A DNA stretch of 40,911 nucleotides, taken from the IMG/VR virus record IMGVR_UViG_3300021061_000014; one strand, given 5' to 3'. Under the pieces are notes generated by a model that made no database searches, had not been told where the DNA came from, and saw only the letters and a program-made list of their open reading frames with translations. Source of the stretch: a virus. Below, piece by piece: positions 402 through 13,245 of the stretch. Every line of letters begins with the position of its first letter. Position 1 is the first letter of the stretch. Both the position numbers and the translations under genes were made by a program.

Positions 402-705
402 GAATCGAGATACCAATACCGCTCCCGACCTGGAACCAGCTTCTTCGGATGCATTACCACAGGCGGAGCTTTGTGAATTCGGTGATCAAGCAGTACGTAT
501 CCATATCCATTCAGTACGCAAGAGGCCAACTGACCCAGACGGGGTATCGGCTAAAGCTGCAATTGATGGAATCGTTGAGGCAGGAGTACTTGACGACGAT
601 AACTGCGAAATCGTCAAAAGCGTTACGTTCTCGCAAGAGCAAGGCGAGGAGGAGCGCACGGTGATAACGATACAACGCCTGAGAGAGCTGGAGGGTAAAT
701 GTTAG
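398..705 (+). pseudogene. rusA: RusA-family Holliday-junction resolvase with a broken reading frame (N-terminus in the 398 frame, C-terminus in the 394..705 frame)
   Basis: The ATG at 398 overlaps the ybcO stop (ATGA) and encodes MRIEIPIPLPTWNQLLRMHYHRR (RusA-like N-terminus). The RusA-like core VRIHIHS..RPTDPDGVSAKAAIDGIVEAGVLDDDNCEIV is in the -1 frame. The composite is about 20 aa shorter than typical RusA. Confidence 0.5.
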
Positions 706-1076
706 TTTACGACAAAGATTCTGCAATGCGTACCTGCAAAAATAGGTTCCAAGGTGACTACAAAAAAGTTCTTTGTATTTGCTCTGCTGGGTTACTGCGC
801 TCACCCACGGCGGCGCTGGTTCTTTCGCAAGACCCCTATTACTACAACACAAGGTCGGCAGGAATTGAACATTATGCCCTGATCCCTGTTAGCGATGTGC
901 TTTTGGAGTGGGCTGATGAAATCGTTTGCATGACCGACGATCAGCAGCAAAGGCTCCGCGAGCTGACAAAGAAGCCTGTTCTTTGCTTGATGATACCGGA
1001 TGATTTCAGCTATCGGGACCATGAATTGGTGGCGATGATCCATGCGAACTATAACAAGGCGACGCAAAGCCCGTGA
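699..1076 (+). CDS. Low-molecular-weight phosphatase family protein (LMW-PTP / ArsC-like fold)
   Basis: P-loop C-X5-R-S (CSAGLLRSPTA), downstream SAG, and an IPDD acid loop, laid out as in Wzb-type LMW-PTPs. Confidence 0.75.
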   Translation: MLVYDKDSAMRTCKNRFQGDYKKVLCICSAGLLRSPTAALVLSQDPYYYNTRSAGIEHYALIPVSDVLLEWADEIVCMTDDQQQRLRELTKKPVLCLMIPDDFSYRDHELVAMIHANYNKATQSP

Positions 1077-1137: not shown

Positions 1138-1536
1138 ATGAAAGGTTCCACGATTGACCATAAGTTCCACATCGGCAGAAAACGGATGCCAAAAGGAATG
1201 GGGTTGTGCTCAGGCTGTCACGCCCGCAGGGATCGCGGAATCCAAAGATACTGTAAAAAATGCCACGCCGAATATATGCGCGAGAATCGGCCGAAGCATT
1301 CTGAGTTAACAGATAAGCAGCGTAAAAAGGCCAACGCAAGATCGTATGCAAATGTTTATCTGAATAGGGGAAAGATTGATCGAAAGCCATGCGAAAAGTG
1401 CGGCTCCCCTGAATCTCAAATGCATCACGAGGATTACAACAGGCCAACAGATGTTACGTGGCTTTGCCGGGAATGCCATCTGGATCACCATAAAGCGGCT
1501 GCAAACGATCAACCACCAATAAGCGAGGCTGTATGA
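1138..1536 (+). CDS. Cys/His-rich zinc-binding protein with HNH-like C-terminal motif
   Basis: CSGCH..CKKCH near the N-terminus. C-terminal CEKCG...HHEDYNRP..VTWLCRECHLDHH. ATGA overlap with the next gene. Confidence 0.65.
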   Translation: MKGSTIDHKFHIGRKRMPKGMGLCSGCHARRDRGIQRYCKKCHAEYMRENRPKHSELTDKQRKKANARSYANVYLNRGKIDRKPCEKCGSPESQMHHEDYNRPTDVTWLCRECHLDHHKAAANDQPPISEAV

Positions 1537-2027
1537 AGAACTGGTATTGCGTACAGACTAAGATTAAGTCGGAAATTCCGGTATCGGTAAGCTTAAGGGT
1601 CCAGGGCTTCGAAACTTATTGCCCTTTGGTTTGGGTTGATAGGAGGAGATCGGTTGCCAAGGAAACAGAATGCATGTTTCCGCGATATGCCTTTGTGCGC
1701 CTTGCTCCAGGTGAGGACAACTTTCGACCGGTCCTGAAAGCTCCCGGGGTGGTTGCAATGGTTCGGGCCGGGCTTTGGCCTGCTGTCGTCCATGATTCAG
1801 TGATCGAAATGCTAAGGAAGCAAGAAGACAGTCTTGGCATCCATACTATCCCGAAGCGGGATTATTCTCCCGGCGATCCCGTGAGAATTAAGTCAGGCCC
1901 CTTCGAAGGGTACGAGGCAATTGTACAAGCAAAGAAGTTTGATCGAATTATTGTTCTGTTCAACATCATGGGGAACGCGGTTCCTACAGAGGTTCCACGA
2001 AAACAACTGGAGCCGCTAAGTGCTTGA
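1533..2027 (+). CDS. RfaH/NusG-family transcription elongation/antitermination factor (NGN + KOW)
   Basis: MKNWYCVQT.., FPRYAFV, PGVVAMVRAG..PAVV, and GDPVRIKSGPFEGYEAIV (KOW) align along the length of RfaH. It occupies the Q position upstream of the lysis genes. Confidence 0.85.
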   Translation: MKNWYCVQTKIKSEIPVSVSLRVQGFETYCPLVWVDRRRSVAKETECMFPRYAFVRLAPGEDNFRPVLKAPGVVAMVRAGLWPAVVHDSVIEMLRKQEDSLGIHTIPKRDYSPGDPVRIKSGPFEGYEAIVQAKKFDRIIVLFNIMGNAVPTEVPRKQLEPLSA

Positions 2028-2051
2028 TTTATTCTCAAACTCAATCATAAT
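2024..2051 (+). promoter_or_regulatory. Candidate late promoter (TTGATT - 16 nt - CATAAT)
   Basis: Sigma70-like hexamers at 2024-2029 and 2046-2051, at the start of the 264-nt gap before the endolysin. Confidence 0.45.
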
Positions 2052-2117
2052 TACTGAATTGTTACCCGCTCAGCCGCTCGGTAACGGCGGCGCTTCCAAA
2101 AAATTTCCCAATTCACC

Positions 2118-2165
2118 AACCGCGACCCCTCTTAACAATGGGCAACATTCGCGGTTTTTGTCTTT
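2118..2165 (+). terminator. Candidate intrinsic terminator in the late leader
   Basis: 8-bp stem AACCGCGA (2118-2125) / TCGCGGTT (2149-2156) followed by TTTTTGTCTTT. The loop is large (23 nt), so stability is uncertain. Confidence 0.4.
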
Positions 2166-2235
2166 GCGGCCCGTTACCGGTGAAACCCATGAGATGTATT
2201 TCAAGTGGGCGTAGGGCCGCTCCAATTGCGTTTCG

Positions 2236-2294
2236 ATTGTCAACCTTAAGCCGAAACATTGGCAACCTTAAGCGGGGTTATTGTCAACCTTATG
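2236..2294 (+). repeat. Three tandem copies of ATTGKCAACCTTAWG with exact 22-bp period
   Basis: Copies start at 2236, 2258 and 2280. Each holds the mini-palindromes TTGnCAA and CTTAAG. The third copy contains the amidase ATG. Confidence 0.9.
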
Positions 2295-2735
2295 CGCCCA
2301 ATAACCAAGATCGTTGTCCATTGCTCCGCCACGAAAGCCGACCGGAATATCGGAGAGGCCGAGATTACCCAGTGGCACAAAGAAAAGGGCTGGCGGGATA
2401 TTGGGTATCACTACGTTATCCGGCGTAATGGATTGCGTGAGAATGGCCGCCCTATTGAGATAGCAGGCGCCCATGTAGCTGGCCACAACACCGGTAGTAT
2501 CGGGATTTGCATGGTTGGCGGGGTTGGTCAGGATGGCAAAGCTGAATGCAATTTCACCTTCCGCCAATTCCAGGCCCTTGAGATTCTTCTGCGCGAACTG
2601 TTAACGCAGTTCCCTAAAGCCGAAGTTCTTGGACATCGTGACTTATCACCCGACATAGACGGTGACGGCACAGTCGAGCAAAGCGAATGGCTGAAGGACT
2701 GTCCGACATTCGACGCAAAGGCCTTTCTAGCCTGA
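2292..2735 (+). CDS. N-acetylmuramoyl-L-alanine amidase endolysin (T7 lysozyme / PGRP family)
   Basis: IVVHCSAT, EI.QWHKEKGWRDIGYHYVI, GAHVAGHN..SIGICMVGG, and CP.FD match T7 gp3.5-type amidases. Start is ATG 2292 (TTG 2259 also possible). Confidence 0.9.
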   Translation: MRPITKIVVHCSATKADRNIGEAEITQWHKEKGWRDIGYHYVIRRNGLRENGRPIEIAGAHVAGHNTGSIGICMVGGVGQDGKAECNFTFRQFQALEILLRELLTQFPKAEVLGHRDLSPDIDGDGTVEQSEWLKDCPTFDAKAFLA

Positions 2736-2775
2736 CCTAACCGGCCCATCGCTGTTGACGCAGCGGGAGGTAGCC

Positions 2776-2985
2776 ATGAATGTGTTTCACAAGACCTGGA
2801 TTTACGGTTTGTTGCTTCTGGCCCTTGCGGGTTGTGTTAGCTGTTCGATGGGCGGGAAGAAGGGCGAAGCTGAGGATCTTATTGAAACCGCTGGCGATGC
2901 TGGCTGCAATATCGAGTCGATAAAGTTCGAGGACGGGCAGGTTAAGCAGATCGATTGCCATGAGACGGTGAGGTTTGTTCGTTGA
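2776..2985 (+). CDS. Small lipoprotein
   Basis: GGGAGG RBS 6 nt upstream of the ATG. Signal peptide with lipobox LLALAGC. Confidence 0.7.
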   Translation: MNVFHKTWIYGLLLLALAGCVSCSMGGKKGEAEDLIETAGDAGCNIESIKFEDGQVKQIDCHETVRFVR

Positions 2986-3383
2986 GCTTTCTGTTATCTC
3001 ACCCCTCCATGTTGATCCTCGGGCTGTTGACTCACTTCCTGATGATCCTGAGCGAGATGTCTTCCGCCCGGAAGACACTTGTTACCCCTTGGGAGTACGT
3101 GAAGGAAAAGCCCTACAAGGCTGCGTTATCGGTAATCGGGTCGATTGTGGCCTATTCGCTCCTGCCGGCTGAAGCCGAGGCTTATGTGGTATTCGGGGCT
3201 GGGTACATGGCCAATGATGCCCTTGACCGCCTCGGGACCATAACCAACAAGTCCATGACCCGGACCATAGTTGTAAACGAGAAAGGGCAGATTCAGAAAA
3301 TCCGCGAGATGGATCAGACGATCATGACATCCGTGGATGAGAACGAAGCCCTGGACAGGCCGAGCGAGGTGCCGCGTGATTGA
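2982..3383 (+). CDS. Membrane protein (holin-like, 2-3 TM segments)
   Basis: Hydrophobic segments LILGLLTHFLMIL, AALSVIGSIVAYSLL, AYVVFGAGYM. TTGA overlap with the upstream gene. Start uncertain (TTG 2982 or ATG 3009). Confidence 0.6.
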   Translation: MSFLLSHPSMLILGLLTHFLMILSEMSSARKTLVTPWEYVKEKPYKAALSVIGSIVAYSLLPAEAEAYVVFGAGYMANDALDRLGTITNKSMTRTIVVNEKGQIQKIREMDQTIMTSVDENEALDRPSEVPRD

Positions 3384-3561
3384 TTATTCGAACGGCGTAA
3401 ATGTTCCGTTTGGTATCCCCGGTTTTAATGCCACTGGTTTTGAGGGTGATGTTCAGCGAATCGAGTATTACCCTGATGGCCGGGTGAAGACCGTGGAGCG
3501 TGTTGTGCGCGGCTTCGGTGGTGGCCTCATGAAGTTTATTGATAACTATCCGCCTAAATGA
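3376..3561 (+). CDS. Hypothetical protein
   Basis: GTG start preceded by GAGG. Overlaps the upstream stop. ATGA overlap with the next gene. ATG 3337 is an alternative start. Confidence 0.5.
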   Translation: MIDYSNGVNVPFGIPGFNATGFEGDVQRIEYYPDGRVKTVERVVRGFGGGLMKFIDNYPPK

Positions 3562-3992
3562 CAGTCGTAGCATGGGATGGCAAGACCTTAGCCACTGACA
3601 AACAGGCTACCAATTCAGGGCTGGCCTACACGGTTACCAAGTCAATGAAGCTTGAGACTGGAGAGGTTTTGGCTTGGACCGATAACGCTGACTCCGGTCT
3701 TATGCTTGTGGATTGGTACAAGAGTGGAGCCGATCCAGCCAAATGGCCTGAATGCCAGAAGAACGAAGATCGTTGGGCAAAGCTGATCGTTATCAAAGAT
3801 AAACGAATTCATGTTTACGAGCGCCAGCCAATACCAATCATTATCGAAGATAAGATCATGGCTTGGGGTTCTGGCCGGGATTTTGCATTGGCAGCTATGG
3901 CGATGGGCGCTGATGCCCGGAAAGCCGTAGAGATTGCATCCATTTTTGAGACTGGATGTGGTCGCGGAGTTGATGTTTACGAGGCTGTATGA
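3558..3992 (+). CDS. HslV / proteasome beta-type Ntn hydrolase-like protein
   Basis: MTVVAWDGKTLATDKQAT (Thr2 nucleophile position) and IMAWGSGRDFALAAMAMGADARKAVEIA parallel HslV TTIV..DGQAT and IAIGSGG.YA.AAA..L. Confidence 0.75.
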   Translation: MTVVAWDGKTLATDKQATNSGLAYTVTKSMKLETGEVLAWTDNADSGLMLVDWYKSGADPAKWPECQKNEDRWAKLIVIKDKRIHVYERQPIPIIIEDKIMAWGSGRDFALAAMAMGADARKAVEIASIFETGCGRGVDVYEAV

Positions 3993-4183
3993 GTAGAACG
4001 AAGAAAGGCGCAAAGTCTCCAGGGTATGAGCTTCAATCGAAAAGGCCGTGCGCTTATATCGATCACCATAAGTGGGCAAAACGCTCCACTCATCGAGCAG
4101 AGCGCCGCGAAGGGAACAAAGAACTGATTAGGGAAATCAGCGAAAAGTATGCTGATGTATTCAAGGCTTTGGCTGATGCCTAA
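3989..4183 (+). CDS. Small basic protein
   Basis: ATGA overlap with the upstream gene. Lys/Arg-rich (KRSTHRAERREGNKEL). Confidence 0.6.
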   Translation: MSRTKKGAKSPGYELQSKRPCAYIDHHKWAKRSTHRAERREGNKELIREISEKYADVFKALADA

Positions 4184-4263
4184 CCCAATTCTGCTGCCTA
4201 GCATCTGGTACTCCTCCAACACTAACGTAATGGGCAGCGCAGAGCTGGGCAGCGGAAACTAAT

Positions 4264-4491
4264 ATGATTGAACAGGTTGGAATTATCCTCACTGGCGTAA
4301 CGGCTGTTTGGCTAACTCAGGATAAGCGCCAGTCATGGCGTAGATGGGCGTGCATCTTCGGTCTTATTGGTCAACCGTTCTGGTTCTATGCTGCATGGAC
4401 TGCCGAGCAGTGGGGGATATTCTTTGTTTGCGTCCTATACACACTTTCATGGCTTCGCGGGATAAAAAACAATTGGCTCAGCAATGTATAA
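4264..4491 (+). CDS. Three-TM small membrane protein, holin candidate
   Basis: Three hydrophobic helices. Overlaps the start of the i-spanin gene by 8 nt. Confidence 0.6.
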   Translation: MIEQVGIILTGVTAVWLTQDKRQSWRRWACIFGLIGQPFWFYAAWTAEQWGIFFVCVLYTLSWLRGIKNNWLSNV

Positions 4492-4744
4492 AGCTCTGGC
4501 AATTCTGCTTATTGTTGCGGCTTTCTTCTTTGGCCGCAGTGTAGGGGTTGATTCGGTAAAAGCTGGCCAGACAGACAAAGCTGTTGAGGTTATTGAGAAC
4601 CGAACTGAGGCCGAGAAGGTAATTGTTCAGGAGCGAGTTGTATACCGTGACCGAATCCAGAAAATCCGCGAAGTGGTACATCAGTGCGATATGCCTTCTG
4701 ACCTTGTCGGCTTGCTCAGGGAATCCGGTGTATTCAGCCGTTAA
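4484..4744 (+). CDS. i-spanin (Rz-like)
   Basis: N-terminal TM segment (ALAILLIVAAFFF) followed by a charged helical region. A lipoprotein gene overlaps its 3' end in another frame. Confidence 0.7.
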   Translation: MYKALAILLIVAAFFFGRSVGVDSVKAGQTDKAVEVIENRTEAEKVIVQERVVYRDRIQKIREVVHQCDMPSDLVGLLRESGVFSR

Positions 4745-4853
4745 GTGTGATGTGCCGGCAACCTCAGATGAAACGGTTACAGGTCTGGCCGTGGTCGCAG
4801 TCGAGATGCGCCAAGCCCTGGAAGAATGTAACAAAAGAAATGGGTATAATTGA
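4638..4853 (+). CDS. o-spanin (Rz1-like lipoprotein), overlapped architecture
   Basis: Alternative frame across the i-spanin 3' end. Lipobox LTLSAC. AGGAG 5 nt before TTG 4638 (GTG 4647 also possible). Confidence 0.7.
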   Translation: MYTVTESRKSAKWYISAICLLTLSACSGNPVYSAVKCDVPATSDETVTGLAVVAVEMRQALEECNKRNGYN

Positions 4854-4857
4854 GCCC

Positions 4858-5049
4858 ATGATTAGTTTACCGCCGCTTTTAAATCCAATCTCCTATAAGG
4901 CAGATCCATTGCTTGAGGAATTATGCCGCAAAGCTGTTGAACAGGCTTTTAATGTAGAGGAAGTCTTTCTTGATTCCGAGAAAAAACACAAAGCTTTACT
5001 TGTAACCCTGAAGGCCGAACTTAATCCCGCTCCACCAAAATCCCAATAG
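4858..5049 (+). CDS. Hypothetical protein
   Basis: ATG-initiated ORF directly after the spanins. Confidence 0.5.
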   Translation: MISLPPLLNPISYKADPLLEELCRKAVEQAFNVEEVFLDSEKKHKALLVTLKAELNPAPPKSQ

Positions 5050-5248
5050 TCTCCCCCTCTTTAACTGGGGCGGATGACTGATGAACACAGAAGGCTTTGA
5101 TCGTGTATTTCTTGCGGTCGATTTGTATCTCTGGCCCGAAGCAATGCATAAGGGATTCATGGTCCCGATGGACTTTGAAGGGGCTTTTAACGGCAAATTC
5201 AATACCGTTGGGCCTTTCGTATTTGCCGATTGAGTGGAGTTTGAGCAT
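5021..5248 (-). CDS. Hypothetical protein, reverse-oriented within the late region
   Basis: It is the only ORF covering 5050-5233. Weak RBS. Confidence 0.45.
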   Translation of the reverse strand: MLKLHSIGKYERPNGIEFAVKSPFKVHRDHESLMHCFGPEIQIDRKKYTIKAFCVHQSSAPVKEGETIGILVERD

Positions 5249-5254
5249 ACCAAT

Positions 5255-5419
5255 ATGACAGCACTAACAAGCAACAGTCACCTGAAGAGACTTGATGAGC
5301 TTGCCATGTGGCATAGAGGCAAGGCAGCAACTACCAGACTCCTTAGGGAACGTGCCAAACATCGGCGGATTGCTGCTGACCTAGAGAAAGCCCATAAGAT
5401 ACTGCGCGGATACGAATAA
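5255..5419 (+). CDS. Hypothetical protein
   Basis: ATG 5255 within ORF 5234..5419. Basic, helical sequence. Confidence 0.5.
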   Translation: MTALTSNSHLKRLDELAMWHRGKAATTRLLRERAKHRRIAADLEKAHKILRGYE

Positions 5420-5433
5420 TGAGTGGAAAACCC

Positions 5434-5577
5434 ATGATGGTGATTAAAGATAACGTGCTTTACAAGGTTGTTAAGGGCCGTTATGTGCGCGTAAAGGCCA
5501 GCAAGAAGAGTCGTGAATCTATGGAAGAGACACGCAAGAAATATGGGGATGTGATGAAGGCTCTAGCAAAATGCTGA
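5434..5577 (+). CDS. Hypothetical small protein (47 aa)
   Basis: Below the ORF-track cutoff. I translated it by hand: MMVIKDNVLYKVVKGRYVRVKASKK... It overlaps the next gene by 7 nt. Confidence 0.35.
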   Translation: MMVIKDNVLYKVVKGRYVRVKASKKSRESMEETRKKYGDVMKALAKC

Positions 5578-5795
5578 ATGTTGTAAAGCTCGACAATACC
5601 AATTTGATGGACATTCCGGCCATGCTTCGGAAGCTGGCTGATGAGATAGAGCAAAAGCCAGAAACCGCCGAGCACGCCATTGTAGTCCTTGCGAGAGAGG
5701 ACGGCAGCGTAGAAGCAAGAGGATACGGCAAAGTAGGCGACCGAGCCCATGAGGTTGGAGTGCTTGAGTTCGCCAAGTTGCAGCTAATGATTTAA
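5571..5795 (+). CDS. Hypothetical protein
   Basis: ORF in the forward late-strand series. Confidence 0.55.
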   Translation: MLNVVKLDNTNLMDIPAMLRKLADEIEQKPETAEHAIVVLAREDGSVEARGYGKVGDRAHEVGVLEFAKLQLMI

Positions 5796-5931
5796 GCGCG
5801 GACTGAGGCCAGTGTTGACGCACCGGCCCCAGTCCTCCCAAACCCCTTATCCGTAAATAAGGAGCAGGTCAGTGATAGTACCCCTGAAACACAACCGGAC
5901 CCCCATACTTTTGACTGAGGGGTAAGCACGT

Positions 5932-6168
5932 ATGACTCAGAATGAGAGGTTAACGGCTTTGGAAGCAAAGTTCGACGCACACGCGCAGCACTGCGTAACG
6001 GACAAGCAGGAAAACAAGAGCCGGTTTGATTCCATCGATAACAAGTTATGGGTAATCATGGGCGGGATCATTCTCAACCTGATAGCCGCTTTTGGGTTCG
6101 CTGCCTACCACGGCTTTCCCTGGGAAAACGGCAGGGTTGAGATCGCGCAGACGGAGGGAAGGGAGTGA
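5932..6168 (+). CDS. Hypothetical protein with C-terminal TM segment
   Basis: GAGGGG RBS. Hydrophobic WVIMGGIILNLIAAFGFAAY. Confidence 0.6.
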   Translation: MTQNERLTALEAKFDAHAQHCVTDKQENKSRFDSIDNKLWVIMGGIILNLIAAFGFAAYHGFPWENGRVEIAQTEGRE

Positions 6169-6332
6169 TTGATTCATTCGTTATGGCGTACAGGATTTAT
6201 ATGGCACGACTGTATCGAAAGGATGGTCAAGATTTAGTTGATTACACGCCTATTGGGATGTTTGGCTATTTTGATTTCAGGCTAAAGGCGGCGAACTCAT
6301 GAAGAAGAAACCCGGTAAAGGCAAAGGCAAAC

Positions 6333-6668
6333 GTGGCTGCTGAAAACCGCATCACCTACCACGAGCCGGACAAGATCTGGATTAAAGATCCGGACGATGT
6401 AGAGAAGTATACGATTGACTGGACCAACTGGCTGGAAGGCGACACGATCAGCTCTACTGATTGGTACATGAACGACTCCGCCACCATTACCGGTCTGACC
6501 CTCACCGAATCCAACACCTCGACGAGCGCAAGCGCCACTATCTCGGGTGGTTATCATGGGGCTAAGTATGTCCTGAGTAACAGGATAGTCACAGCTGCCG
6601 GGCTCACCAAAGAGAAGAAGTTGATTATTCAGGTAGTTGATACCGAGTATCGGAGGATGTGTAACTGA
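6333..6668 (+). CDS. Hypothetical protein
   Basis: GTG start. Its stop overlaps the terS start (TGATG). Confidence 0.55.
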
Positions 6669-7153
6669 TGCCCGCCCCGGTAGGCAATCGCTTCTGGGAA
6701 GCCAGAACAACCCACGGCAGGGGCAAGATATTCGAAACCCCCGATATTCTGTGGGCGGCTTGTTGTGAATATTTCGAGTGGGTTGAGGGCAACCCCTTGA
6801 AAGAGGAAAAGGTGTTCTGCTCGCAAGGGCAGGTAACTAAGGCAGAAGTAACCAAAATGCGAGCCATGACCATTTTTGGTCTGTGCCATTTCCTTGGCAT
6901 ATCGAGACCGACTTGGGACGAATATTGCGGGCGGGAAGATTTTGCTTACATCTGTAGCGAAGCTGAGAACGTCATCAGGGATCAGAAGTTTACTGGGGCC
7001 GCCGCCGACCTCCTGAACGCTAACATCATAGCCCGAGACCTCGGCTTGGCTGACAAGCAAGAAAACAAACACGACGTGTCCGATACTCTGGCCCAACTCT
7101 TATCCAACATGGACGGAGCCGACACAGGCTTACCGAATGCCAACAGCGAGTGA
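6668..7153 (+). CDS. terS: Terminase small subunit, P22 gp3 type
   Basis: [35 protein letters not shown], and [23 protein letters not shown] closely follow the P22 gp3 family as I recall it. Confidence 0.9.
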
Positions 7154-8612
7154 TTTGGCCAACCCATACTGGCGGCTGAATAACCTCTACTACATCAAAA
7201 ATAAGCAGGGCGAAAAGGTAAAGTTTCGCTTTAACTGGGCTCAAGAGCTACTTTACAAAGGGATGTGGTATATGTGCCTCATCCTCAAAGTTCGCCAGTT
7301 AGGCATAACGACGCTGATTCAGATATTCATGCTGGATCGGTGTTTGTTCAATTCGAACATTAATGCCGGCGTCATCGCGCACAACAGGGAAGACGCACAG
7401 AAGTTCTTCAAGGACAAGATCAAGTTTGCCTATGACAACCTGCCTGCTGAGTTAAAGCAGCGCATACCGGCAAACAATGACTCGGCCGGCGAGCTTTCAT
7501 TCGCTAATGGCTCAAGTATTCGTGTCGGGACGTCCCTCCGGTCAGGCACATACCAATACTTGCATGTCTCGGAGTTCGGAAAGATATGCGCCAAGTATCC
7601 AGACAAAGCCAGTGAAATCATTACTGGATCGCTTAACACGGTAGCGGCTGGGCAGTTCGTATTTATCGAGTCCACGGCCGAGGGTGATTGGGGTCATTTC
7701 TATGACCTTTGTATGCAATACAAGAATTACCCTGAGAGTGAGCTCACAGAACTTGATTACAAGTTCTTTTTCTTCAATTGGATCAATCATCCAGAGTATC
7801 GGCTAAAAGCTGACGTAAAGATTCCAGCCGACCTTGAGGCGTATTTCATTGACTTAGAGCATCAGCTTGGAATTGAGCTGACATCAGAGCAGAAAGCCTG
7901 GTACACCAAAAAGAAGGGCACTCAGAAATCCAAGATGAAGCAAGAGTACCCCTCCACTGTTGATGAAGCTTTTGAGCAGATTTCTGAGTTCGCTGTGTAT
8001 GGGGAGCAGATCGGGAAGGTCTTGGAAGAGGATCGATTTTGCAAGCTTCCAGTTACCGCCAATCGCCCGGTAGATGTGTTTCTTGATATTGGTAAGAGCA
8101 CAAAGGCAGAGACGACCTGTGCCTGGTTCATGCAGCACAACGAGCCGTGGTATGACTTTGTGGATTATTACCAGAACCAATTAAAGCCGGTTGGCGTTTA
8201 CGTTAAAGAAATACGGGACAAGGGTTATAACCTCGGAAGGTGGTTCATCCCGCACGACGCTGACAATCAGCGGGATTACGACATGAAGACCTTCAAGGAC
8301 CGCCTCATTAGCGCAGGTGTGAAGGAAGACCGGATTGTAGTTGTTCCGAGAGTTGACCAGATCAAGACCGGTATCGACATGATGAAGGAAAAGTTTCCGG
8401 CGTGTCGGTTCGATGAAACCAAGACTAAAGATGGGTGGAAAGCTTTGAAAGCATATCGGTACGAATGGGATGAAAAGAAGGCTGTGCTTGGCGAGCCTGT
8501 ACACGATTGGGCATCACACCCTTCGGACGCCATCCGCCAAATGGCGCAGGGCTATAAGCCAGAAGACGCGGAAGATGAGGAGTTCGATATTCCCGCCGGA
8601 GTTGGCCTGTAA
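7137..8612 (+). CDS. terL: Terminase large subunit
   Basis: 491 aa, directly after terS. Walker-A-like [10 protein letters not shown]. Position and size fit. Confidence 0.9.
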
Positions 8613-10594
8613 TGGCAAGAACTAAGGCAGAGCCCAAGAAGAAGGACAAGCAGATCGAGGCCGTCGTTGAGCGGTGCAAAAAGGCTCGCACAGAGTCGTA
8701 TGAAGCCGACAGCGCAAACCGGAAGGAGATGGTTGACGACCTCAAGTTTGCCGCACTGGATCAGTGGCCGGAGGAGATCAAGAAGGAGCGCAACGGCCGG
8801 TTGATGCTCACCCTGGACAAAGTAGGGCAGGGCATCAAGGCTGTTATCGGAGACATGCGCGACAATCGTCCGTCTATCCGTGTAATGCCGGTGGACGACA
8901 ACGCAGACGTTGAGACTGCTAAGGTCATGGGTGGGTTGATCAACACGATTGAACAAACCAGCAACGCCACGGCGGTATATCTCCACGGCGCTGAGTTTCA
9001 GGTTAAGTGCGGCTTTGGTGTGTGGAGGATCGAGAACGAATTCGCCTCACACGATGCGTTTGAGCAAGACCTGTATGTGCGTAGGGTTAAGAATCCACTG
9101 AACTGGTGGTTTGATCCGCGAGCCAACGAAATCACCAAGCACGATGGACGTTATGTCCTTGGCCTCGTACAGATGCACAAGGACGACTTCAAGGCTGAAT
9201 TCCCTGAAGTGGAGGCGTCTGATTTAGACGAGCTGTTTACCGGTGAGGGCTTTGGAGATTGGGTGTCCGATGAGGACGTAATCTTTTGCGAGTACTACGA
9301 GAAGGTACCCAAGAAGCGCGCCATATGCCTTCTGTCCAACGGGCACACGATAGCCAAGGATGAATTAGCCGACGACGATAAGGCGATTATGGAGGCGTAC
9401 GGCCTCATGATCGTTAAAGAGCGGGAAGTCGAGTCTTACGAGATCCACTACTGGAAGGTCACCGGGAACACTGCGTTCGACCATCACGTTCTGCCATACC
9501 AGTATTTCCCGGTTATCCCGGTTTACGGTGAGGTGGATAACATCGAGGGCGAAGAGACTATTCGCGGCCTCGTGCGGCCGGCCAAAGACCCTCAGCGTTT
9601 GTACAACTATGTCAGTTCCGCTGATGTGGAACAGATGGCGCTCCAGCCTAAAGCCCCGTTTATTGGTACGGGGAAGATGTTCGCCAAGTGGAAGAGCCTT
9701 TGGTACAGAGCGAACAAAGACAATACCCCTTTCCTGCCATACACGCCTGACCCCAATGCTCCAGGGATGAAGCCCGAACGCTCACAGCCCCCTGTGGCTT
9801 CGAGCGGTTATCTCCAGCGCGCACAGATTGCCGGAGATGATATTCGGAGCGCAATGGGTGTTCATGAGGCTTCATTTGGCCAAGAATCCAACGCGATCAG
9901 CGGTAAGGCAAAGCTGATAGAGCAGCAGTCTGGAATAGTCACCAACAGCGTTTACATGTTCAACCTTGCCACGGCTATCGAGCATACCGGCCGTGTGTTG
10001 GTGGACATGATTCCGTTTTTCTACGACACGATGAGAGTGATCAGAATCACGGGGGAAGACGGTCAAGAAGACTCAGTAACGATCAACAAGCCCTATGTAT
10101 CGGCTGATGGCAAGCGCATTGAGCACGACCTGACGCGGGGCAAATATGATGTTCGTATCTCTGTCGGCCCTTCCTACAAGACCAAGCGCGCTCAGGCGGT
10201 GGATGCCCTTTACCAGCTTGCCCAAGCTGACCCGAGAGTCCTTCAAATTGCAGGCGACCTGATCGCCAAGAACCTGGATATCCCGCACGCTGATGAGCTT
10301 GAGGCGCGTTTCAGGAAGACGCTTCCTCCTGGCCTTGTGGAAGAAAAAGACCCCGAGAAGAAAGCCCAAATGGATCAGGCAGCACAACAGGCTCAGCAGC
10401 AGCAGCAGCAGGCCATGATGATCCAGATTCAACAGATCCTCTCAGAGATAGAGGAACGCAAATCCAAGACCCAGCTAAATCAGGCCAAGACCGCCGAAAC
10501 ACTGGAAGGTATTGATTCTGACAAGGTCCGGCTTCTTAAAGATTTTCTCGCCCAAGTGGCGTCTCCTTCGCAACCCGCGCAACAACAGAGGTAA
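8612..10594 (+). CDS. Portal protein (P22-like, with Gln-rich C-terminal helical extension)
   Basis: 660 aa following terL. DDLKFAALDQW...RPSIRVMPVD pattern. C-terminal QQAQQQQQQAMMIQIQQ region. Confidence 0.9.
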   Translation: MARTKAEPKKKDKQIEAVVERCKKARTESYEADSANRKEMVDDLKFAALDQWPEEIKKERNGRLMLTLDKVGQGIKAVIGDMRDNRPSIRVMPVDDNADVETAKVMGGLINTIEQTSNATAVYLHGAEFQVKCGFGVWRIENEFASHDAFEQDLYVRRVKNPLNWWFDPRANEITKHDGRYVLGLVQMHKDDFKAEFPEVEASDLDELFTGEGFGDWVSDEDVIFCEYYEKVPKKRAICLLSNGHTIAKDELADDDKAIMEAYGLMIVKEREVESYEIHYWKVTGNTAFDHHVLPYQYFPVIPVYGEVDNIEGEETIRGLVRPAKDPQRLYNYVSSADVEQMALQPKAPFIGTGKMFAKWKSLWYRANKDNTPFLPYTPDPNAPGMKPERSQPPVASSGYLQRAQIAGDDIRSAMGVHEASFGQESNAISGKAKLIEQQSGIVTNSVYMFNLATAIEHTGRVLVDMIPFFYDTMRVIRITGEDGQEDSVTINKPYVSADGKRIEHDLTRGKYDVRISVGPSYKTKRAQAVDALYQLAQADPRVLQIAGDLIAKNLDIPHADELEARFRKTLPPGLVEEKDPEKKAQMDQAAQQAQQQQQQAMMIQIQQILSEIEERKSKTQLNQAKTAETLEGIDSDKVRLLKDFLAQVASPSQPAQQQR

Positions 10595-10597
10595 TCA

Positions 10598-11461
10598 ATG
10601 AGTACTGAAACAACGGTCGTTGAGACCGCGAGCGCTCCTGCACCTGTCGAAAACGCAGCCCCGACAACTGCTGACGAGGGGAAAGCCCCTGATACCGGTA
10701 CTGAGTCTACCGACACTCCGGCCAGCGCCGCCGAAAACCCCGAGAAGGGCGAGGAAAAAGCCAAGCCATCTCCGGGAGTCCAGAAGCGCATAAATGAGCT
10801 GACGCGCGATAAGCACCAGCTTCGGGAAGAAAAGAGACAACTGGAGGAGGAGCTTAACAGGCTTCGCCAACAGGCCAGCCCGCAGGAACCCAAAGAGCCA
10901 AAGCTTGCTGATTTTGATAACGACGCTGACTTTGTGGCGGCCGTTCACAAGTATCACCAGGACAAAGCTGCTTACGATTCCTCGCAGGGTAAGCAACGTG
11001 AGACGCAAGAACAGGAAGCCCAGCGCAAGCAGGAAGCTCGGTTCAAAACGGCTCAGAAATTCGTTAACGACCTGAACAAAGAAAAGGCCAATTACGAAGG
11101 CATTGATGAGGTTATCGCAGACCCTACGTTTGCGTTAATAACCAAGGAGATGTCACCTGATTTGGTAACTCTTATTCAGGAATCGCCGAAAAACGTTGCT
11201 CTGTTCTATCACCTCGGCACCCATCTTGAGGAAGCCGAGCGGATAGCCTCCCTTTCTCCCGTTCAAGCCGCGCGTGAACTAGCTCTCCTGGAGTCTCGGT
11301 TGGAAATACCCAAACCGAAGACAGTTAGCAACGCGCCCCCTCCTGTAAAGCAAGTCAAGGGATCGTCAGTAACCGAAAAGGATATTTACGACCCGAAGCT
11401 TCCTTATTCTGAGTACGACGCTCTGCGCAAGAAGCAAAGAGCCGCTCGCAAGTGGAGGTAG
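10598..11461 (+). CDS. Scaffolding protein
   Basis: Lies between portal and coat. Acidic, helical, low-complexity sequence rich in E/K/Q/A. Confidence 0.75.
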   Translation: MSTETTVVETASAPAPVENAAPTTADEGKAPDTGTESTDTPASAAENPEKGEEKAKPSPGVQKRINELTRDKHQLREEKRQLEEELNRLRQQASPQEPKEPKLADFDNDADFVAAVHKYHQDKAAYDSSQGKQRETQEQEAQRKQEARFKTAQKFVNDLNKEKANYEGIDEVIADPTFALITKEMSPDLVTLIQESPKNVALFYHLGTHLEEAERIASLSPVQAARELALLESRLEIPKPKTVSNAPPPVKQVKGSSVTEKDIYDPKLPYSEYDALRKKQRAARKWR

Positions 11462-11484
11462 GGCCATGTTTGGAGTAATTCAAA

Positions 11485-12699
11485 ATGGCAAATTCCAATT
11501 TAACGATGGACATGATCACGAAGGAGGCTCTGAGTGTTGCTCATGAATCCCTTCAGTTCATAGCAACGACTGACCTTCAGTACGACGACTCGTACGGCAA
11601 AGTAGGGGCCAAAATCGGCTCCGCTTTGCGCGTACGCAAGCCCAACCAGTACAAACGTACCACGGGTTCCCGTGTTATGGATGTACAGGACCAGAACGAG
11701 CAGAGCGGCACTATCACGCTGGCCACCCAAGACCATGTAGATATGCGATTCAACTCTGCTGAACTGGCTCTTTCGATTGACGAGTTCAGCAAGCGTTATA
11801 TCGAACCTGCGGTGAAGGTTTTGGTGTCTGGTATTGAGGCGGATTATATCGCCGCTTCGACGAAGGCCACCTATAACCTGGCTGGCACGGCTGGCACTGC
11901 CTTGACTGACCTTGTAGCGGTAGGCGCGGCTCGTGCGAAGCTGAACCAGCAGTTAGCCCCGAAAGACGGTAATCGTTACATTCAGTGCGACTCAGTTGCG
12001 ATGGGTGGGATGGTTAACGGCTTGAAGGGTCTGTTTCAGGATTCCGAGCAGATTCGCAAGCAGTACCGTGAAGGCCTGATCGGTCGCACCGCGATGGCTG
12101 ACTGGTATGAAAATGACCGCATGTGGACGCTGACCAACAGCGCCGACGTTGCGGGCGAAATTAACCAGACCAGCTTTACCAGTGGTTTGAGCACTCTAAC
12201 TGTGGACGGCTTCACCGCCGCTCCGGCTGTCGGTTCCGTGTTCACTATTGGCGCTGGCTCTGGTGAAACCAAAGTCTATGATGTTCATCCTGAAACGAAG
12301 GTTGCTTACTCCCATCTGAAGCAATTCACCGTTGTTTCAGCGACGACCACAAGCATCACCTTTAGCCCAGCGATCATCTGGGACACGACCAACCCCCTGC
12401 AAAACGTATCCGGCGCGCCGACCGACAACGCGGACATTACTTTTGTCGGATCAGCTTCGACCAGCTACGTCCAGCAGTTGATGTACCACAAGGAAGCGTT
12501 CCAGTTCGTAACGGCCGACCTGCCGTTGATGGACGACGCCCACAAGTGTTCTCGCATCGCTCAAGACGGGTTGTCGCTGCGTGTTTGGCAAGCCTCGGAC
12601 ATTCGTAACGATGAGCTGCTGATGCGTATCGATATTTTGTACGGAATGGCTGCCCTTCGTCCTGAGTGGGCGTGCCGAATCATTGGCGCGGCTAACTAA
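11485..12699 (+). CDS. Major capsid (coat) protein, P22 coat family
   Basis: 404 aa after the scaffold gene. C-terminal ILYGMAALRPEW resembles the P22 coat C-terminus. Confidence 0.9.
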   Translation: MANSNLTMDMITKEALSVAHESLQFIATTDLQYDDSYGKVGAKIGSALRVRKPNQYKRTTGSRVMDVQDQNEQSGTITLATQDHVDMRFNSAELALSIDEFSKRYIEPAVKVLVSGIEADYIAASTKATYNLAGTAGTALTDLVAVGAARAKLNQQLAPKDGNRYIQCDSVAMGGMVNGLKGLFQDSEQIRKQYREGLIGRTAMADWYENDRMWTLTNSADVAGEINQTSFTSGLSTLTVDGFTAAPAVGSVFTIGAGSGETKVYDVHPETKVAYSHLKQFTVVSATTTSITFSPAIIWDTTNPLQNVSGAPTDNADITFVGSASTSYVQQLMYHKEAFQFVTADLPLMDDAHKCSRIAQDGLSLRVWQASDIRNDELLMRIDILYGMAALRPEWACRIIGAAN

Positions 12700-12712
12700 G
12701 GAGGAATGAACA

Positions 12713-13201
12713 ATGGCACTTTCTGCAAATCTTGAACGCTTGAACTACGGCTCGCCTGACGGCTGTGTTGCTACCGGCCAGCATCGAGAAATCGTCTCTG
12801 TCACGTCAAACACTACGCTGACCAAAGAGCAATCTGGAGCTTTGGTTCTGCTGGGTGTTGCCTCTGGCGCGACCTTGACCCTTCCGGCCCCGCAGGAAGG
12901 CATGTACTTCGATGTGGGTGTAACAGTCACTCGTACCTCCAACTCATACAAAATTATCACCGACGCGGCCACAACCTTCCTGGTTGGCGCTGTGATGGCG
13001 GGCGATGCAACTATCGCCACCTCCGGTGACGTGTTTGAGGCGGATGGCACGACCATTGTGGCGGTAACGATGGATGGTGATACCAAGGGCGGCTTTATCG
13101 GCACGACCCTTCGTTTCGTCTGCATCAGTTCTACCAAGTGGTACGTAAATGGTTTGGTCATCGGCACTGGCACGATGGTTACCCCGTTTGCTACTTCGTA
13201 A
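12713..13201 (+). CDS. Virion-module hypothetical protein (possible decoration/accessory head protein)
   Basis: GGAGG RBS. Directly downstream of the coat gene. Confidence 0.65.
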   Translation: MALSANLERLNYGSPDGCVATGQHREIVSVTSNTTLTKEQSGALVLLGVASGATLTLPAPQEGMYFDVGVTVTRTSNSYKIITDAATTFLVGAVMAGDATIATSGDVFEADGTTIVAVTMDGDTKGGFIGTTLRFVCISSTKWYVNGLVIGTGTMVTPFATS

Positions 13202-13211
13202 CCAACCCTCT

Positions 13212-13234
13212 GGGCCAAGGATGGCCCTCCTTCT
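13212..13234 (+). terminator. Hairpin GGGCCA-agga-TGGCCC followed by TCCTTCT
   Basis: 6-bp GC-rich stem in the 44-nt gap after 12713..13201. The U-tract is weak. Confidence 0.3.
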
Positions 13235-13245
13235 AAGGAGTTCTT

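What the first reader, a model, noticed from the sequence alone, without database searches (positions are those of the whole stretch)
1533..2291. An RfaH/NusG-family protein sits in the Q-antiterminator slot, followed by a promoter / hairpin / T-tract leader
The gene order NinB, small TM protein, YbcO, RusA, phosphatase, Zn protein, X, lysis genes copies the lambdoid nin-Q-lysis layout (ybcO-rusA precede Q in DLP12). However, X (1533..2027) is not Q-like. It has the NGN + KOW architecture of RfaH (MKNWYCVQT, FPRYAFV, GDPVRIKSGPFEGYEAIV). The 264-nt gap before the endolysin begins with TTGATT-16 nt-CATAAT (2024..2051, overlapping the stop codon of X). An 8-bp stem AACCGCGA/TCGCGGTT (2118..2156) then runs into TTTTTGTCTTT. 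This is the PR-prime/tR-prime logic, apparently served by a paralogue of a host elongation factor. No exact ops element (GGCGGTAGnnTG) is present. The nearest features are a GCCGC/GCGGC hairpin (2073..2091) before the terminator and GGGCGTAGGGCC (2207..2218) after it, so any recruitment signal would be new.
Basis: partly seen in the sequence, partly recalled or inferred. Interest (0 to 1): 0.7.

Follow-up and report, generated by a model that had tools for sequence, protein, structure and literature searches.

The report
Phage RfaH-like late-gene antiterminator switch
A temperate P22-like phage has a relative of the bacterial elongation factor RfaH where lambdoid phages keep their late-gene switch Q, followed by a conserved promoter, an ops-like DNA signal (GGCGGCGC) and a terminator, which suggests a host-derived factor has taken over the Q job.

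Summary
X (1533..2027) is a NusG/RfaH-family protein: Pfam NGN domain, a full-length match to the RfaH model that falls below its cutoff, and an AF2/Foldseek NGN plus beta-barrel KOW. It is the last early gene of a circular ~40.8-kb P22-like temperate phage in which I found no Q homologue.

In ten related metagenomic leaders (X homologues of 45-100% identity) the same layout recurs:
- a -35 overlapping the stop codon, a 16-nt spacer and a TAnnnT -10
- a hairpin
- an invariant GGCGGCGC (window 2086..2093)
- a G-poor CA-rich tract
- a terminator hairpin of at least five unrelated sequences
- the lysis genes.

One sister lineage has near-canonical ops (GGCGGTAGCG) at the same position, and it alone keeps the Arg73 equivalent that reads ops.

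More distant RfaH/NusG-like genes sit directly upstream of terminase genes in other phages, including Sinorhizobium phage phi3LM21. The closest characterised parallel is the plasmid PrfaH system.

Function is inferred, not shown. I rate it a new variant of a known kind, interest about 0.6.

The parts
1533..2027 (+). Gene X: a 164-aa RfaH-like NusG paralogue (NGN + KOW). It is the last gene of the early-right (nin) operon, and its start overlaps the stop codon of the upstream gene.
   Evidence: Pfam NusG 1.2e-13. TIGR01955 RfaH 6e-30, full length but below cutoff. PHROG 6386. AF2 NGN plus beta-barrel. Foldseek to NusG/RfaH. Synteny.
2024..2051 (+). Predicted late promoter: -35 TTGATT (2024-2029, overlapping the X stop codon), 16-nt spacer, -10 CATAAT (2046-2051). 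Predicted start near 2057-2059.
   Evidence: In nine further leaders a TTGnnn -35 and a TAnnnT -10 recur. The spacer is 16 nt in all of them except L330 (17 nt), although the spacer sequence diverges. In L330 the -35 lies outside the coding sequence.
2061..2085 (+). Hairpin A: GTTACC (2061-2066) pairs with GGTAAC (2080-2085). It ends right at the motif and has the geometry of a pause hairpin for RNAP halted about 11 nt downstream.
   Evidence: In seven leaders, stems ending 0-2 nt before the motif sum to 36 bp, against 23.1 +/- 3.2 in shuffles (0 of 2000 reach it). Arm sequences differ in a compensatory way.
2073..2093 (+). Alternative hairpin B: an upstream GCCGC-type segment pairs with the motif itself.
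   Evidence: All nine distinct leaders carry an upstream segment complementary to the motif. Summed duplex energy is -108.2 against -68.9 +/- 7.4 in shuffles (0 of 1000). In L330 the 5' arm matches that leader's own GGGCGGTA variant.
2086..2093 (+). ops-like element GGCGGCGC (extended form AYGGCGGCGCWT, 2084-2095) on the non-template strand. Proposed recruitment site for X.
   Evidence: Invariant in the leaders of the X clade, P0015 and P0017. The sister lineage P0016 has GGCGGTAGCGCC at the homologous place. The first five bases match E. coli ops, GGCGGTAGCGTG (sequence as quoted in PMC11880322).
2094..2117 (+). G-free, C/A-rich spacer (TTCCAAAAAATTTCCCAATTCACC). A possible rut-like or unstructured tract.
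   Evidence: Across eight leaders the spacers hold 5% G, against 26% in the window, with 34% C and 39% A (binomial P about 8e-21).
2118..2165 (+). Intrinsic-terminator-like hairpin (8-bp stem plus an inner 3-bp helix) followed by U5GUCU3.
   Evidence: dG -12.9 kcal/mol. L062 and L064 keep the same hairpin with one compensatory A-U to G-C change. At least four other, unrelated terminator hairpins occupy the same place in L063/L068/L332, L065, L330 and L334.
2166..2235 (+). Segment mostly absent from relatives.
   Evidence: Missing from all related leaders except a partly similar stretch in L063 (A1). Sequence.
2236..2301 (+). Three tandem 22-nt repeats (ATTGkCAACCTTAwGC...). The third contains the amidase ATG at 2292. 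No Shine-Dalgarno sequence precedes this start.
   Evidence: The repeats are present in three independent assemblies. Relatives have GAGG or GGAG at that position.
2292..20795 (+). Presumed target: an ~18.5-kb plus-strand late operon. It runs from the Amidase_2 endolysin through the lysis genes, small and large terminase, portal and coat to the tail genes.

Best explanation
X is the phage's late-gene switch. It is a phage-encoded, operon-specific elongation factor of the RfaH type that does the job Q does in lambda.

Shown here:
- X is a NusG/RfaH-family protein made from the early operon.
- It is always followed by a conserved promoter, hairpin, GGCGGCGC element, G-poor tract and terminator, and then by the late genes.

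Inferred:
- RNA polymerase starts at the promoter that overlaps the X stop codon, or arrives from the early operon.
- It halts a few tens of bases downstream, with GGCGGCGC exposed on the non-template strand of the bubble. Hairpin A in the exit channel may help hold it there.
- The X NGN domain binds the exposed element and the polymerase clamp, as RfaH does at ops.
- The modified polymerase reads through the terminator at 2118..2165 and through later intrinsic or Rho-dependent stops across the 18.5-kb late operon.
- Without X, transcripts end in the leader.
- The KOW domain may also recruit ribosomes. This would matter here because the first late gene lacks a Shine-Dalgarno sequence.
For: Family:
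- Pfam NGN and PHROG 6386.
- The RfaH model is the best NCBIfam hit: 104 bits, against UpxY 70, NusG 43 and LoaP 30.
- The alignment with E. coli RfaH is colinear, residues 1-154 to 1-154.
- The AF2 model and Foldseek agree with an NGN plus KOW fold.

Position:
- X homologues of 45-81% identity are always the last nin-region gene.
- They stand before a 140-265-nt gap and then an endolysin whose type varies (Amidase_2, VanY, GH108).
- No Q homologue was found.

Leader:
- The promoter keeps a 16-nt spacer in nine of ten leaders.
- GGCGGCGC is invariant.
- At least five unrelated terminator hairpins occupy one position.
- The motif starts between about +16 and +46 from the predicted start, as expected for an elongation-phase signal.

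Link to ops:
- The P0016 lineage has GGCGGTAGCGCC at the homologous site.
- Among these phage proteins it alone keeps the Thr72-Arg73 equivalent. The GGCGGCGC lineages have P, I, T, H or Q there.
- Arg73 is one of the four side chains that read ops G5/T6 (PMC5995543).
- Lys10 is kept in every phage lineage aligned.

Precedent:
- Plasmid PrfaH uses its own ops-like non-template stem-loop, and a stem-loop termination signal lies ahead of virB1 (PMC11880322).

Recurrence:
- Distant RfaH/NusG-like genes lie directly upstream of terS/terL in L324, L325, L326 and L328.
- The same holds in Sinorhizobium phage phi3LM21, whose leader has GGGCGGTAACC and then a terminator.
Against: - There are no expression or biochemical data.
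- The promoter and terminator are consensus-level predictions.
- In L062, L064, L068 and L330 the U-tract after the hairpin is short (3-4 U), so intrinsic termination may be weak there.
- Three of the four ops-reading residues of E. coli RfaH (H20, R23, R73) are absent from X. H20 does not track the motif type, because P0017 has H20 with GGCGGCGC.
- The motif is always paired with an upstream complement. This is not a feature of the E. coli ops mechanism as described in the structural paper read here, and it leaves room for RNA-level recognition.
- The X KOW loop reads I-M-G, closer to the Rho-binding I-F-G of NusG than to the L-I-N of RfaH. Loss of Rho binding therefore cannot be assumed.
- The AF2 model has only moderate confidence (pLDDT 67.6, 13-sequence alignment).
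- The effective number of independent leaders is about nine, from a few metagenome projects.
Confidence: 0.65

Rival explanations
1. X is the late antiterminator, but it is recruited by the nascent RNA hairpin that contains GGCGGCGC, not by non-template DNA. That would resemble LoaP with its leader RNA hairpin, or lambda N with nut.
For: In all nine distinct leaders an upstream segment is complementary to the motif (sum -108.2 against -68.9 +/- 7.4 in shuffles, 0 of 1000). L330's 5' arm is complementary to that leader's own GGGCGGTA variant. X lacks H20, R23 and R73. That LoaP needs a leader RNA hairpin is from my own knowledge; I did not check it here.
Against: The pairing register and loop length differ between leaders, so no single RNA shape is conserved. 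The motif shares GGCGG with ops, and a sister lineage replaces it with near-canonical ops and keeps Arg73. X scores far better against the RfaH model than the LoaP model (104 against 30 bits). The characterised PrfaH system is reported to use a non-template DNA stem-loop.
Confidence: 0.2
2. X and the leader are not a matched pair. X would be a general elongation or anti-Rho factor, or a factor acting on host operons. The leader would be an ordinary late promoter plus the terminator that ends early transcription, with late genes switched on by something else.
For: Nothing directly ties X to the leader. Two contigs (L066, L067) end 3 nt after the X stop codon, which may mark a recombination or assembly junction between X and the leader. 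The KOW loop is NusG-like. L065 has a Sigma70_r4 protein just upstream of its X homologue.
Against: X and the leader stay together across 45-100% protein identity while both flanks are swapped. The motif type changes together with the protein lineage. No other candidate late regulator was found in the window. X is translationally coupled to early lytic genes, which does not fit a lysogenic-conversion gene.
Confidence: 0.1
3. X keeps NusG-like Rho binding and works the opposite way. It would load at the leader to promote Rho termination on the G-poor tract and hold late genes off, for example during establishment of lysogeny.
For: The I-M-G loop resembles the I-F-G Rho contact loop of NusG. The tract after the motif is rut-like: C-rich with 5% G.
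Against: X is made together with the lytic early genes, just before the late genes are needed. The known specialised NusG paralogues covered by the papers read here, including plasmid PrfaH, are antiterminators. The other RfaH-like phage genes found sit directly before terminase operons.
Confidence: 0.05

Closest known systems
E. coli RfaH with the ops element (GGCGGTAGCGTG)
   Same: X has the same two-domain NGN + KOW protein of about 162 aa and aligns colinearly with it. Lys10 and Gln24 are kept. The cis element begins with the same GGCGG, lies on the non-template strand of a 5' leader, and precedes a long, horizontally mobile operon.
   Different: - X scores below the RfaH equivalog cutoff (104 against 144.5 bits).
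- It lacks H20, R23, R73 and the HTT motif.
- The element reads CGC where ops has TAG, so the flipped-out T6 is a C.
- X is encoded next to its single target, not as a stand-alone gene acting in trans.
- AF2 predicts a beta-barrel CTD, not the autoinhibitory helical hairpin.
- The element is embedded in a conserved hairpin.
PrfaH (ActX) of IncX conjugative plasmids (PMC11880322)
   Same: It is an RfaH paralogue encoded on a mobile element. It has its own divergent ops-like element just downstream of a promoter and a stem-loop termination signal ahead of the operon it activates. Its DNA-reading residues also differ from those of E. coli RfaH.
   Different: PrfaH is on a plasmid and controls a type IV secretion operon. 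Its ops-like site lies upstream of prfaH itself, so it autoregulates. Its element has a different sequence, and its crystal structure shows a helical CTD. Structural similarity to the X model is modest (9ik0_A, E 2.6e-3).
Lambda Q with PR', qut and tR' (also Q21 and Q82)
   Same: The genomic slot is the same: last gene of the nin region, just before the lysis genes. The logic is the same: promoter, promoter-proximal loading site, terminator, then a long late operon.
   Different: The protein fold is unrelated. Q binds duplex DNA between the promoter hexamers and loads at a sigma-dependent pause at a fixed distance. Here the element lies at a variable distance (+16 to +46) and looks like a signal read during elongation.
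LoaP, UpxY and other cis-encoded specialised NusG paralogues
   Same: They are encoded next to the operon they antiterminate. LoaP promotes read-through of intrinsic terminators and needs a leader hairpin (from my own knowledge).
   Different: HMM scores are much lower (UpxY 70 bits, LoaP 30 bits). Those systems are found in Bacteroidota and Firmicutes polysaccharide or polyketide clusters, not in phages.
NusG-like 'antitermination proteins' annotated in Sinorhizobium phage phi3LM21 (p27) and Rhizobium phage PPF1 (gp91); PHROG 6386
   Same: These are phage-borne NusG-family genes at the boundary between replication and late genes. The phi3LM21 leader has GGGCGGTAACC followed by a terminator.
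   Different: They share only 25-27% identity with X, are longer (about 220 aa), and come from phages of alphaproteobacteria. They are annotation only; I found no functional study in the searchable library.

Membership tests
NusG/Spt5 superfamily | N-terminal NGN domain | tested here: met
   Pfam PF02357 at 51.8 bits against a cutoff of 22.2, covering residues 2-94. Foldseek matches NusG, RfaH and Spt5 with probability 1.0.
NusG/Spt5 superfamily | C-terminal KOW beta-barrel | tested here: met
   Pfam KOW is below cutoff (15 against 22.3 bits). However, AF2 gives five strands over residues 116-161, and these match the NusG CTD 2jvv (TMt 0.79) and the RfaH CTD 2lcl (TMt 0.71). Model confidence is moderate.
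RfaH (TIGR01955 / PRK09014 equivalog) | Score above the curated equivalog cutoff | tested here: not met
   104.2 bits against 144.5, and 71.8 against 124. RfaH is still the best-scoring model, and the match is full length.
RfaH (TIGR01955 / PRK09014 equivalog) | ops-reading side chains K10, H20, R23 and R73 | tested here: not met
   K10 is kept. Position 20 is S, position 23 is V, and the R73 equivalent is P71. The residue roles are taken from PMC5995543.
RfaH (TIGR01955 / PRK09014 equivalog) | Target carries the ops consensus GGCGGTAGnnTG on the non-template strand | tested here: not met
   There is no exact ops in the window. The conserved leader element is GGCGGCGC, which shares 5 of the 8 core bases. 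The sister lineage has GGCGGTAGCG.
RfaH (TIGR01955 / PRK09014 equivalog) | Autoinhibited helical CTD that refolds on recruitment | tested here: inconclusive
   The best AF2 model has a beta-barrel CTD. A shallow alignment and the known AF2 bias on fold-switching proteins mean this does not settle it.
RfaH (TIGR01955 / PRK09014 equivalog) | Loss of the NusG Rho-contact loop (NusG I164-F165-G166; RfaH L145-I146-N147) | tested here: inconclusive
   X has I145-M146-G147, with M146 and G147 invariant in its clade. This is closer to NusG. Loop roles are from PMC7593976.
Lambdoid Q antiterminators | Q-family protein (Pfam or PHROG Q models) | tested here: not met
   X hits only NusG-family models. 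No ORF scanned in the early-right operon hits a Q model.
Lambdoid Q antiterminators | Position and logic: last nin-region gene, then promoter, loading site, terminator and lysis genes | tested here: met
   The order is NinB, YbcO, RusA-like, then X, leader and amidase. Promoter and terminator are conserved in ten leaders.
Lambdoid Q antiterminators | Loading at a sigma-70-dependent pause at a fixed promoter-proximal distance | not testable with these tools
   The distance from the -10 hexamer to the motif varies from 21 to 52 nt between leaders. This argues against a fixed promoter-linked site, but pausing itself cannot be measured here.
LoaP | Score above the NF033641 cutoff | tested here: not met
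   30.1 bits against a cutoff of 125.
Mobile-element RfaH paralogue with its own ops-like site (PrfaH type) | RfaH-like protein encoded beside a divergent ops-like leader element and a termination stem-loop ahead of the target operon | tested here: met
   The architecture is met in silico. That read-through depends on the protein was not tested.

The most novel reading that the evidence does not exclude
A lineage of temperate phages has replaced Q with a captured RfaH-like elongation factor. That factor has evolved its own recognition code: GGCGGCGC in place of GGCGGTAG, read without His20, Arg23 or Arg73. The element is embedded in a conserved hairpin, so the factor may sense both the non-template DNA and the nascent RNA. 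Together with the near-canonical-ops sister lineage, this gives a natural pair of matched protein-site variants, from which the specificity rules of NusG paralogues could be read and re-engineered.
Probability: 0.3. Interest if true: 0.75.

Novelty: new variant of a known kind. Interest (0 to 1): 0.6.

Why it matters
Q-type proteins are the textbook late switch of lambdoid phages, and RfaH is the textbook operon-specific NusG paralogue of their hosts. If X works as proposed, a host-type elongation factor can be slotted into the Q position. The architecture recurs in unrelated phages: alphaproteobacterial phages and IMG/VR contigs carry RfaH-like genes directly ahead of terminase genes. It would therefore be an overlooked general class of phage late regulator, currently annotated only as 'NusG antiterminator'.

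The two matched variants also offer a compact natural experiment on how NusG paralogues choose their targets. GGCGGCGC goes with a non-Arg residue at position 73, and GGCGGTAG goes with Arg73. A small, portable promoter-signal-terminator-factor module would also be useful as an orthogonal switch for long synthetic operons.

Tried and rejected
1. Pattern scans with GTGCTTGA-N(38-64)-GGCGGCGC in viral and metagenome contigs returned about 240 loci. None encodes an X homologue by tblastn.
2. The exact 20-mer GGCGGCGCWTVCAAAAAATT gave no hit in IMG/VR. X as a single-protein query also found no IMG/VR relative.
3. Rfam at gathering thresholds found nothing in the window.
4. No phage in GenBank resembles the region at the DNA level. 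Only the terminase genes matched, at about 66% identity.
5. I first thought His20 covaried with the motif type. I dropped this when P0017 turned out to have H20 together with GGCGGCGC. Only the Arg73 equivalent tracks the motif.
6. GGGCGTAGGGCC (2207-2218) is rejected as the signal. It lies in a segment mostly absent from relatives.
7. GGCGGCGC is not enriched in the window: 4 copies against 2.0 expected. I draw no conclusion from the other copies.
8. MAFFT did not put the 5' hairpin arms in register (A5). I therefore did not use the count of structure pairs, and scored the hairpins with my own scripts and shuffles instead.
9. The whole-leader MFE z-score is unremarkable (-1.16).
Full report
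**What the window is.** The window is a complete, circularly permuted genome of about 40.8 kb. Its last ~60 bases repeat window positions ~67-126, and two 40,925-bp ENA contigs carry the same sequence. It is a P22-like temperate phage, with these genes:
- P22 portal, P22 coat protein and gp3-type small terminase
- an integrase at 22840..23781
- a cI-like repressor at 32796..33254 and a P22 Cro-type gene next to it.

It has no close relative among 50,697 GenBank phage records. Only the terminase genes matched, at about 66% identity.

**Checking the observation.** Every coordinate in the finding is correct.
- X is 1533..2027, and its ATG overlaps the stop codon of the upstream gene.
- TTGATT (2024-2029) overlaps the TGA stop of X. 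CATAAT (2046-2051) follows after 16 nt. This is the only plus-strand sigma-70-like site in the first 8 kb.
- The 8-bp stem 2118-2125 / 2149-2156 has an inner 3-bp helix and folds at -12.9 kcal/mol. It runs into TTTTTGTCTTT.
- No exact ops sequence is present.

X belongs to the NusG family:
- Pfam NGN, 51.8 bits against a cutoff of 22.2; Pfam KOW is weak.
- PHROG 6386 'transcription antiterminator', 1.3e-25.
- The best NCBIfam model is RfaH (TIGR01955): full length, 104 bits, below the 144.5-bit equivalog cutoff. UpxY scores 70, NusG 43 and LoaP 30.
- X aligns colinearly with E. coli RfaH, 1-154 to 1-154.
- AF2 (13-sequence alignment, pLDDT 67.6) gives an NGN domain plus a five-strand barrel.
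- The best Foldseek matches in the PDB are NusG and RNAP-bound RfaH.

- NinB (phrog_72)
- YbcO, a RusA-like protein and an HNH-type zinc protein.

The 'phosphatase' has no HMM support. None of the early-right-operon proteins I scanned, nor the precomputed Pfam hits on the identical contig L001, hit a Q family.

**Relatives.** The protein database holds 13 close homologues (71-81% identity), all from metagenomes. An exhaustive search adds three more distant lineages: P0015 (57%), P0016 (48%) and P0017 (45%).

Wherever the contig extends far enough, the homologue is the last gene of a nin-type region. Its upstream neighbours vary: NinG, YbcO, RusA, Dam, HNH, and in one case a Sigma70_r4 protein. 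A 140-265-nt gap follows, and then the first lysis gene, which also varies: Amidase_2, VanY-like or GH108. The protein and its downstream leader therefore travel together while both flanks are exchanged.

**Anatomy of the leader.** I compared ten leaders, nine of them distinct.

(a) Promoter.
- A -35 of TTGAnn overlaps the stop codon. In L330 a TTGCAC lies outside the gene.
- The spacer is exactly 16 nt in nine leaders and 17 nt in L330, with little sequence conservation.
- The -10 is TAnnnT (CATAAT in the window).

(b) The invariant 8-mer.
- GGCGGCGC is at window 2086-2093, with extended consensus AYGGCGGCGCWT.
- It is present in the X clade, P0015 and P0017.
- It begins 21-52 nt after the -10, about +16 to +46 from the predicted start. 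It is therefore not tied to the promoter as a Q-binding site is.

(c) The sister lineage.
- In P0016 (L329-L331) the homologous position reads GGCGGTAGCGCC.
- That is the first ten bases of E. coli ops, GGCGGTAGCGTG.

(d) The spacer after the motif.
- It is a G-poor, C/A-rich tract of 24-55 nt.
- It holds 5% G against 26% in the genome (P about 8e-21).

(e) The terminator.
- A stable hairpin is followed by a T-run.
- The hairpin is the same in the window, L062 and L064, with one compensatory A-U to G-C change.
- Unrelated hairpins take its place in L063/L068/L332, L065, L330 and L334.
- T-runs are strong in the window, L063, L065 and L334, and short elsewhere.

Replacement of the terminator sequence with its position kept is the strongest sign that termination at this point is selected.

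**Hairpins around the motif.** Two overlapping structures are supported.
- Hairpin A ends 0-2 nt before the motif (window 2061-2085). Its arm sequences differ between leaders in a compensatory way. Summed stem length is 36, against 23.1 +/- 3.2 in shuffles (0 of 2000).
- Hairpin B pairs the motif itself with an upstream GCCGC-type segment. Such a complement exists in all nine leaders (-108.2 against -68.9 +/- 7.4 kcal/mol, 0 of 1000).
- In L330 the 5' arm (UGCCGUCC) is complementary to that leader's own GGGCGGUA variant.

With RNAP halted about 11 nt into the element, as at ops, only hairpin A could have formed. Hairpin B could form only after RNAP escapes. This two-step picture is my inference.

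**Protein-site covariation.** In the RfaH-ops structure, K10, H20, R23 and R73 read G5 and the flipped-out T6, and a C3:G8 pair shapes the non-template hairpin (PMC5995543). The residues in the phage lineages are listed below.

| Lineage | Motif | Pos. 10 | Pos. 20 | Pos. 23 | R73 equivalent |
|---|---|---|---|---|---|
| E. coli RfaH | GGCGGTAG | K | H | R | R |
| X (window) | GGCGGCGC | K | S | V | P |
| X-clade members P0010, P0012 | GGCGGCGC | K | C, W | M, N | I, T |
| P0015 | GGCGGCGC | K | N | R | H |
| P0017 | GGCGGCGC | K | H | R | Q |
| P0016 | GGCGGTAG | K | H | N | R (T72 also kept) |

Only position 73 tracks the motif: Arg goes with TAG, and a non-Arg residue goes with CGC. This rests on one phage lineage plus E. 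coli, so it is suggestive, not proof. GGCGGCGC could still form a mini-hairpin (G2:C8 and C3:G7, with a G4-G5-C6 loop). This is by analogy with ops and with the PrfaH site, and was not tested.

**Wider recurrence.**
- A profile search of IMG/VR found 18 viral contigs with RfaH-like genes of 26-35% identity.
- In L324, L325, L326 and L328 the gene lies directly upstream of the small and large terminase genes.
- L324 has GTCGGTAGATTG (11 of the 12 ops positions, counting nn as free) in the 17-nt gap before terS.
- L328 has GCGGTAGCC followed by a terminator.
- L326 and L327 have GCGGCGCACGAGATAA and GGCAGCGCACGAGATAA followed by terminators.
- Among cultured phages, only Sinorhizobium phage phi3LM21 and Rhizobium phage PPF1 carry a relative, annotated as a NusG antiterminator. 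In both it sits at the boundary between replication and late genes.
- The phi3LM21 leader contains GGGCGGTAACC and then a GGCGGCC/GGTCGCC hairpin with TTTTT.

**Literature.**
- Wang et al. 2020 note in one sentence that rfaH-like genes occur on plasmids and prophages (PMC7593976).
- The phrases 'phage-encoded RfaH', 'phage-encoded NusG' and 'prophage-encoded RfaH' occur in no paper of the searchable library.
- The closest characterised system is PrfaH of IncX plasmids. It has its own ops-like non-template stem-loop downstream of a promoter, and a stem-loop termination signal ahead of virB1 that PrfaH overcomes (PMC11880322).

**Interpretation.** The most likely reading is that X is the late-gene antiterminator of this phage: an RfaH-type factor in the Q slot. 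It would be recruited at the ops variant GGCGGCGC and carry RNAP through the leader terminator and the 18.5-kb late operon (2292..20795).
- Shown: the family, the position, and the conservation of the cis elements.
- Inferred: the transcription start, pausing, binding to non-template DNA, and antitermination.

Points against:
- Three of the four ops-reading residues are missing.
- The motif always has an upstream complement, so recognition of RNA is possible.
- Several relatives have short U-tracts.
- The KOW loop I-M-G resembles the Rho-contact loop I-F-G of NusG more than the L-I-N of RfaH.

**Verdict.** The system is a new variant of a known kind: RfaH/ops-type control, already known on chromosomes and plasmids, serving as a phage late switch. 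Interest is about 0.6. It is not a shock to specialists, but it is uncharacterised, it recurs, and it can be tested directly.

Noticed in passing
window 2236-2301: Three tandem 22-nt repeats (ATTGTCAACCTTAAGCCGAAAC, ATTGGCAACCTTAAGCGGGGTT, ATTGTCAACCTTATGCGCCCAA). The third holds the amidase start codon at 2292. The window has CAACCTT where relatives have a GAGG or GGAG Shine-Dalgarno, so the first late gene lacks an obvious ribosome-binding site. The repeats are present in three independent assemblies.
   Followed up: partly
window 2166-2235: This segment after the terminator is mostly absent from relatives. It carries a 7-bp inverted repeat, GCGGCCC (2166-2172) / GGGCCGC (2214-2220), with a 41-nt loop. 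It also has GTTACCGG (2173-2180), which echoes GTTACCCG at the start of the leader (2061-2068).
   Followed up: partly
window 2094-2117 and the equivalent tract in L062-L065, L068, L330, L334: The tract between the motif and the terminator is almost free of G (5% against 26%) and rich in C and A. Many copies contain AAAAAATT. It could be a rut-like site, which would add Rho-dependent termination to the leader.
   Followed up: partly
window 1965-1973 (X residues 145-147): The X KOW loop reads I-M-G, with M146 and G147 invariant in the clade. This is closer to the Rho-contact loop I164-F165-G166 of NusG than to L145-I146-N147 of RfaH.
   Followed up: partly
window 808-817: CGGCGGCGCT, identical to the leader element over 10 nt, lies on the plus strand inside the early ORF 699..1076, upstream of X. 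It is within chance expectation (4 copies of the 8-mer against 2.0 expected), and it fails the extended consensus at its last base.
   Followed up: partly
window 35977-35988 and 40030-40041: GGCGGTAGCCAC (an exact 8-mer ops core) and GGCGGTATTCTG (1 mismatch to GGCGGTAGnnTG) lie on the plus strand of the early-right operon. Overall counts are at chance level.
   Followed up: no
It has no Pfam, PHROG or NCBIfam hit.
   Followed up: partly
L066 and L067 (contig ends): Two contigs from one sample end exactly 3 nt after the stop codon of the X homologue. This suggests an assembly break where a conserved gene end meets variable leaders, that is, several co-occurring variants.
   Followed up: no
L065 4267-4842: In one relative, a 191-aa protein with a Sigma70_r4 domain sits immediately upstream of the X homologue. 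It might be a second transcription factor in that phage.
   Followed up: no
L334 154-906 (P0015): This 57%-identical homologue is 250 aa long, about 86 aa longer than X. In the alignment (A4) the extra residues appear as insertions late in the KOW region. It still has the same promoter, GGCGGCGC and terminator layout.
   Followed up: partly
L311-L318 (IMG/VR): A group of RfaH-like genes (about 34% identity) is followed by a terminator-like hairpin and then by an ORF whose translated start (MSTEHQQYST) looks to me like a serine recombinase; this was not checked with a family search. If so, these sit in another kind of mobile element, not before late genes.
   Followed up: no
L324 3486-3507; L328 1449-1520; L070 4610-4730: Distant phage RfaH/NusG-like genes are followed by ops-like strings: GTCGGTAGATTG, GCGGTAGCC and GGGCGGTAACC. 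In L328 and phi3LM21 an intrinsic terminator follows, ahead of the terminase or late genes.
   Followed up: partly
window 1-126 and 40785-40911: The end of the window repeats its start, so the sequence is a circular or terminally redundant assembly of about 40,784 bp. The nin region runs across the junction.
   Followed up: yes
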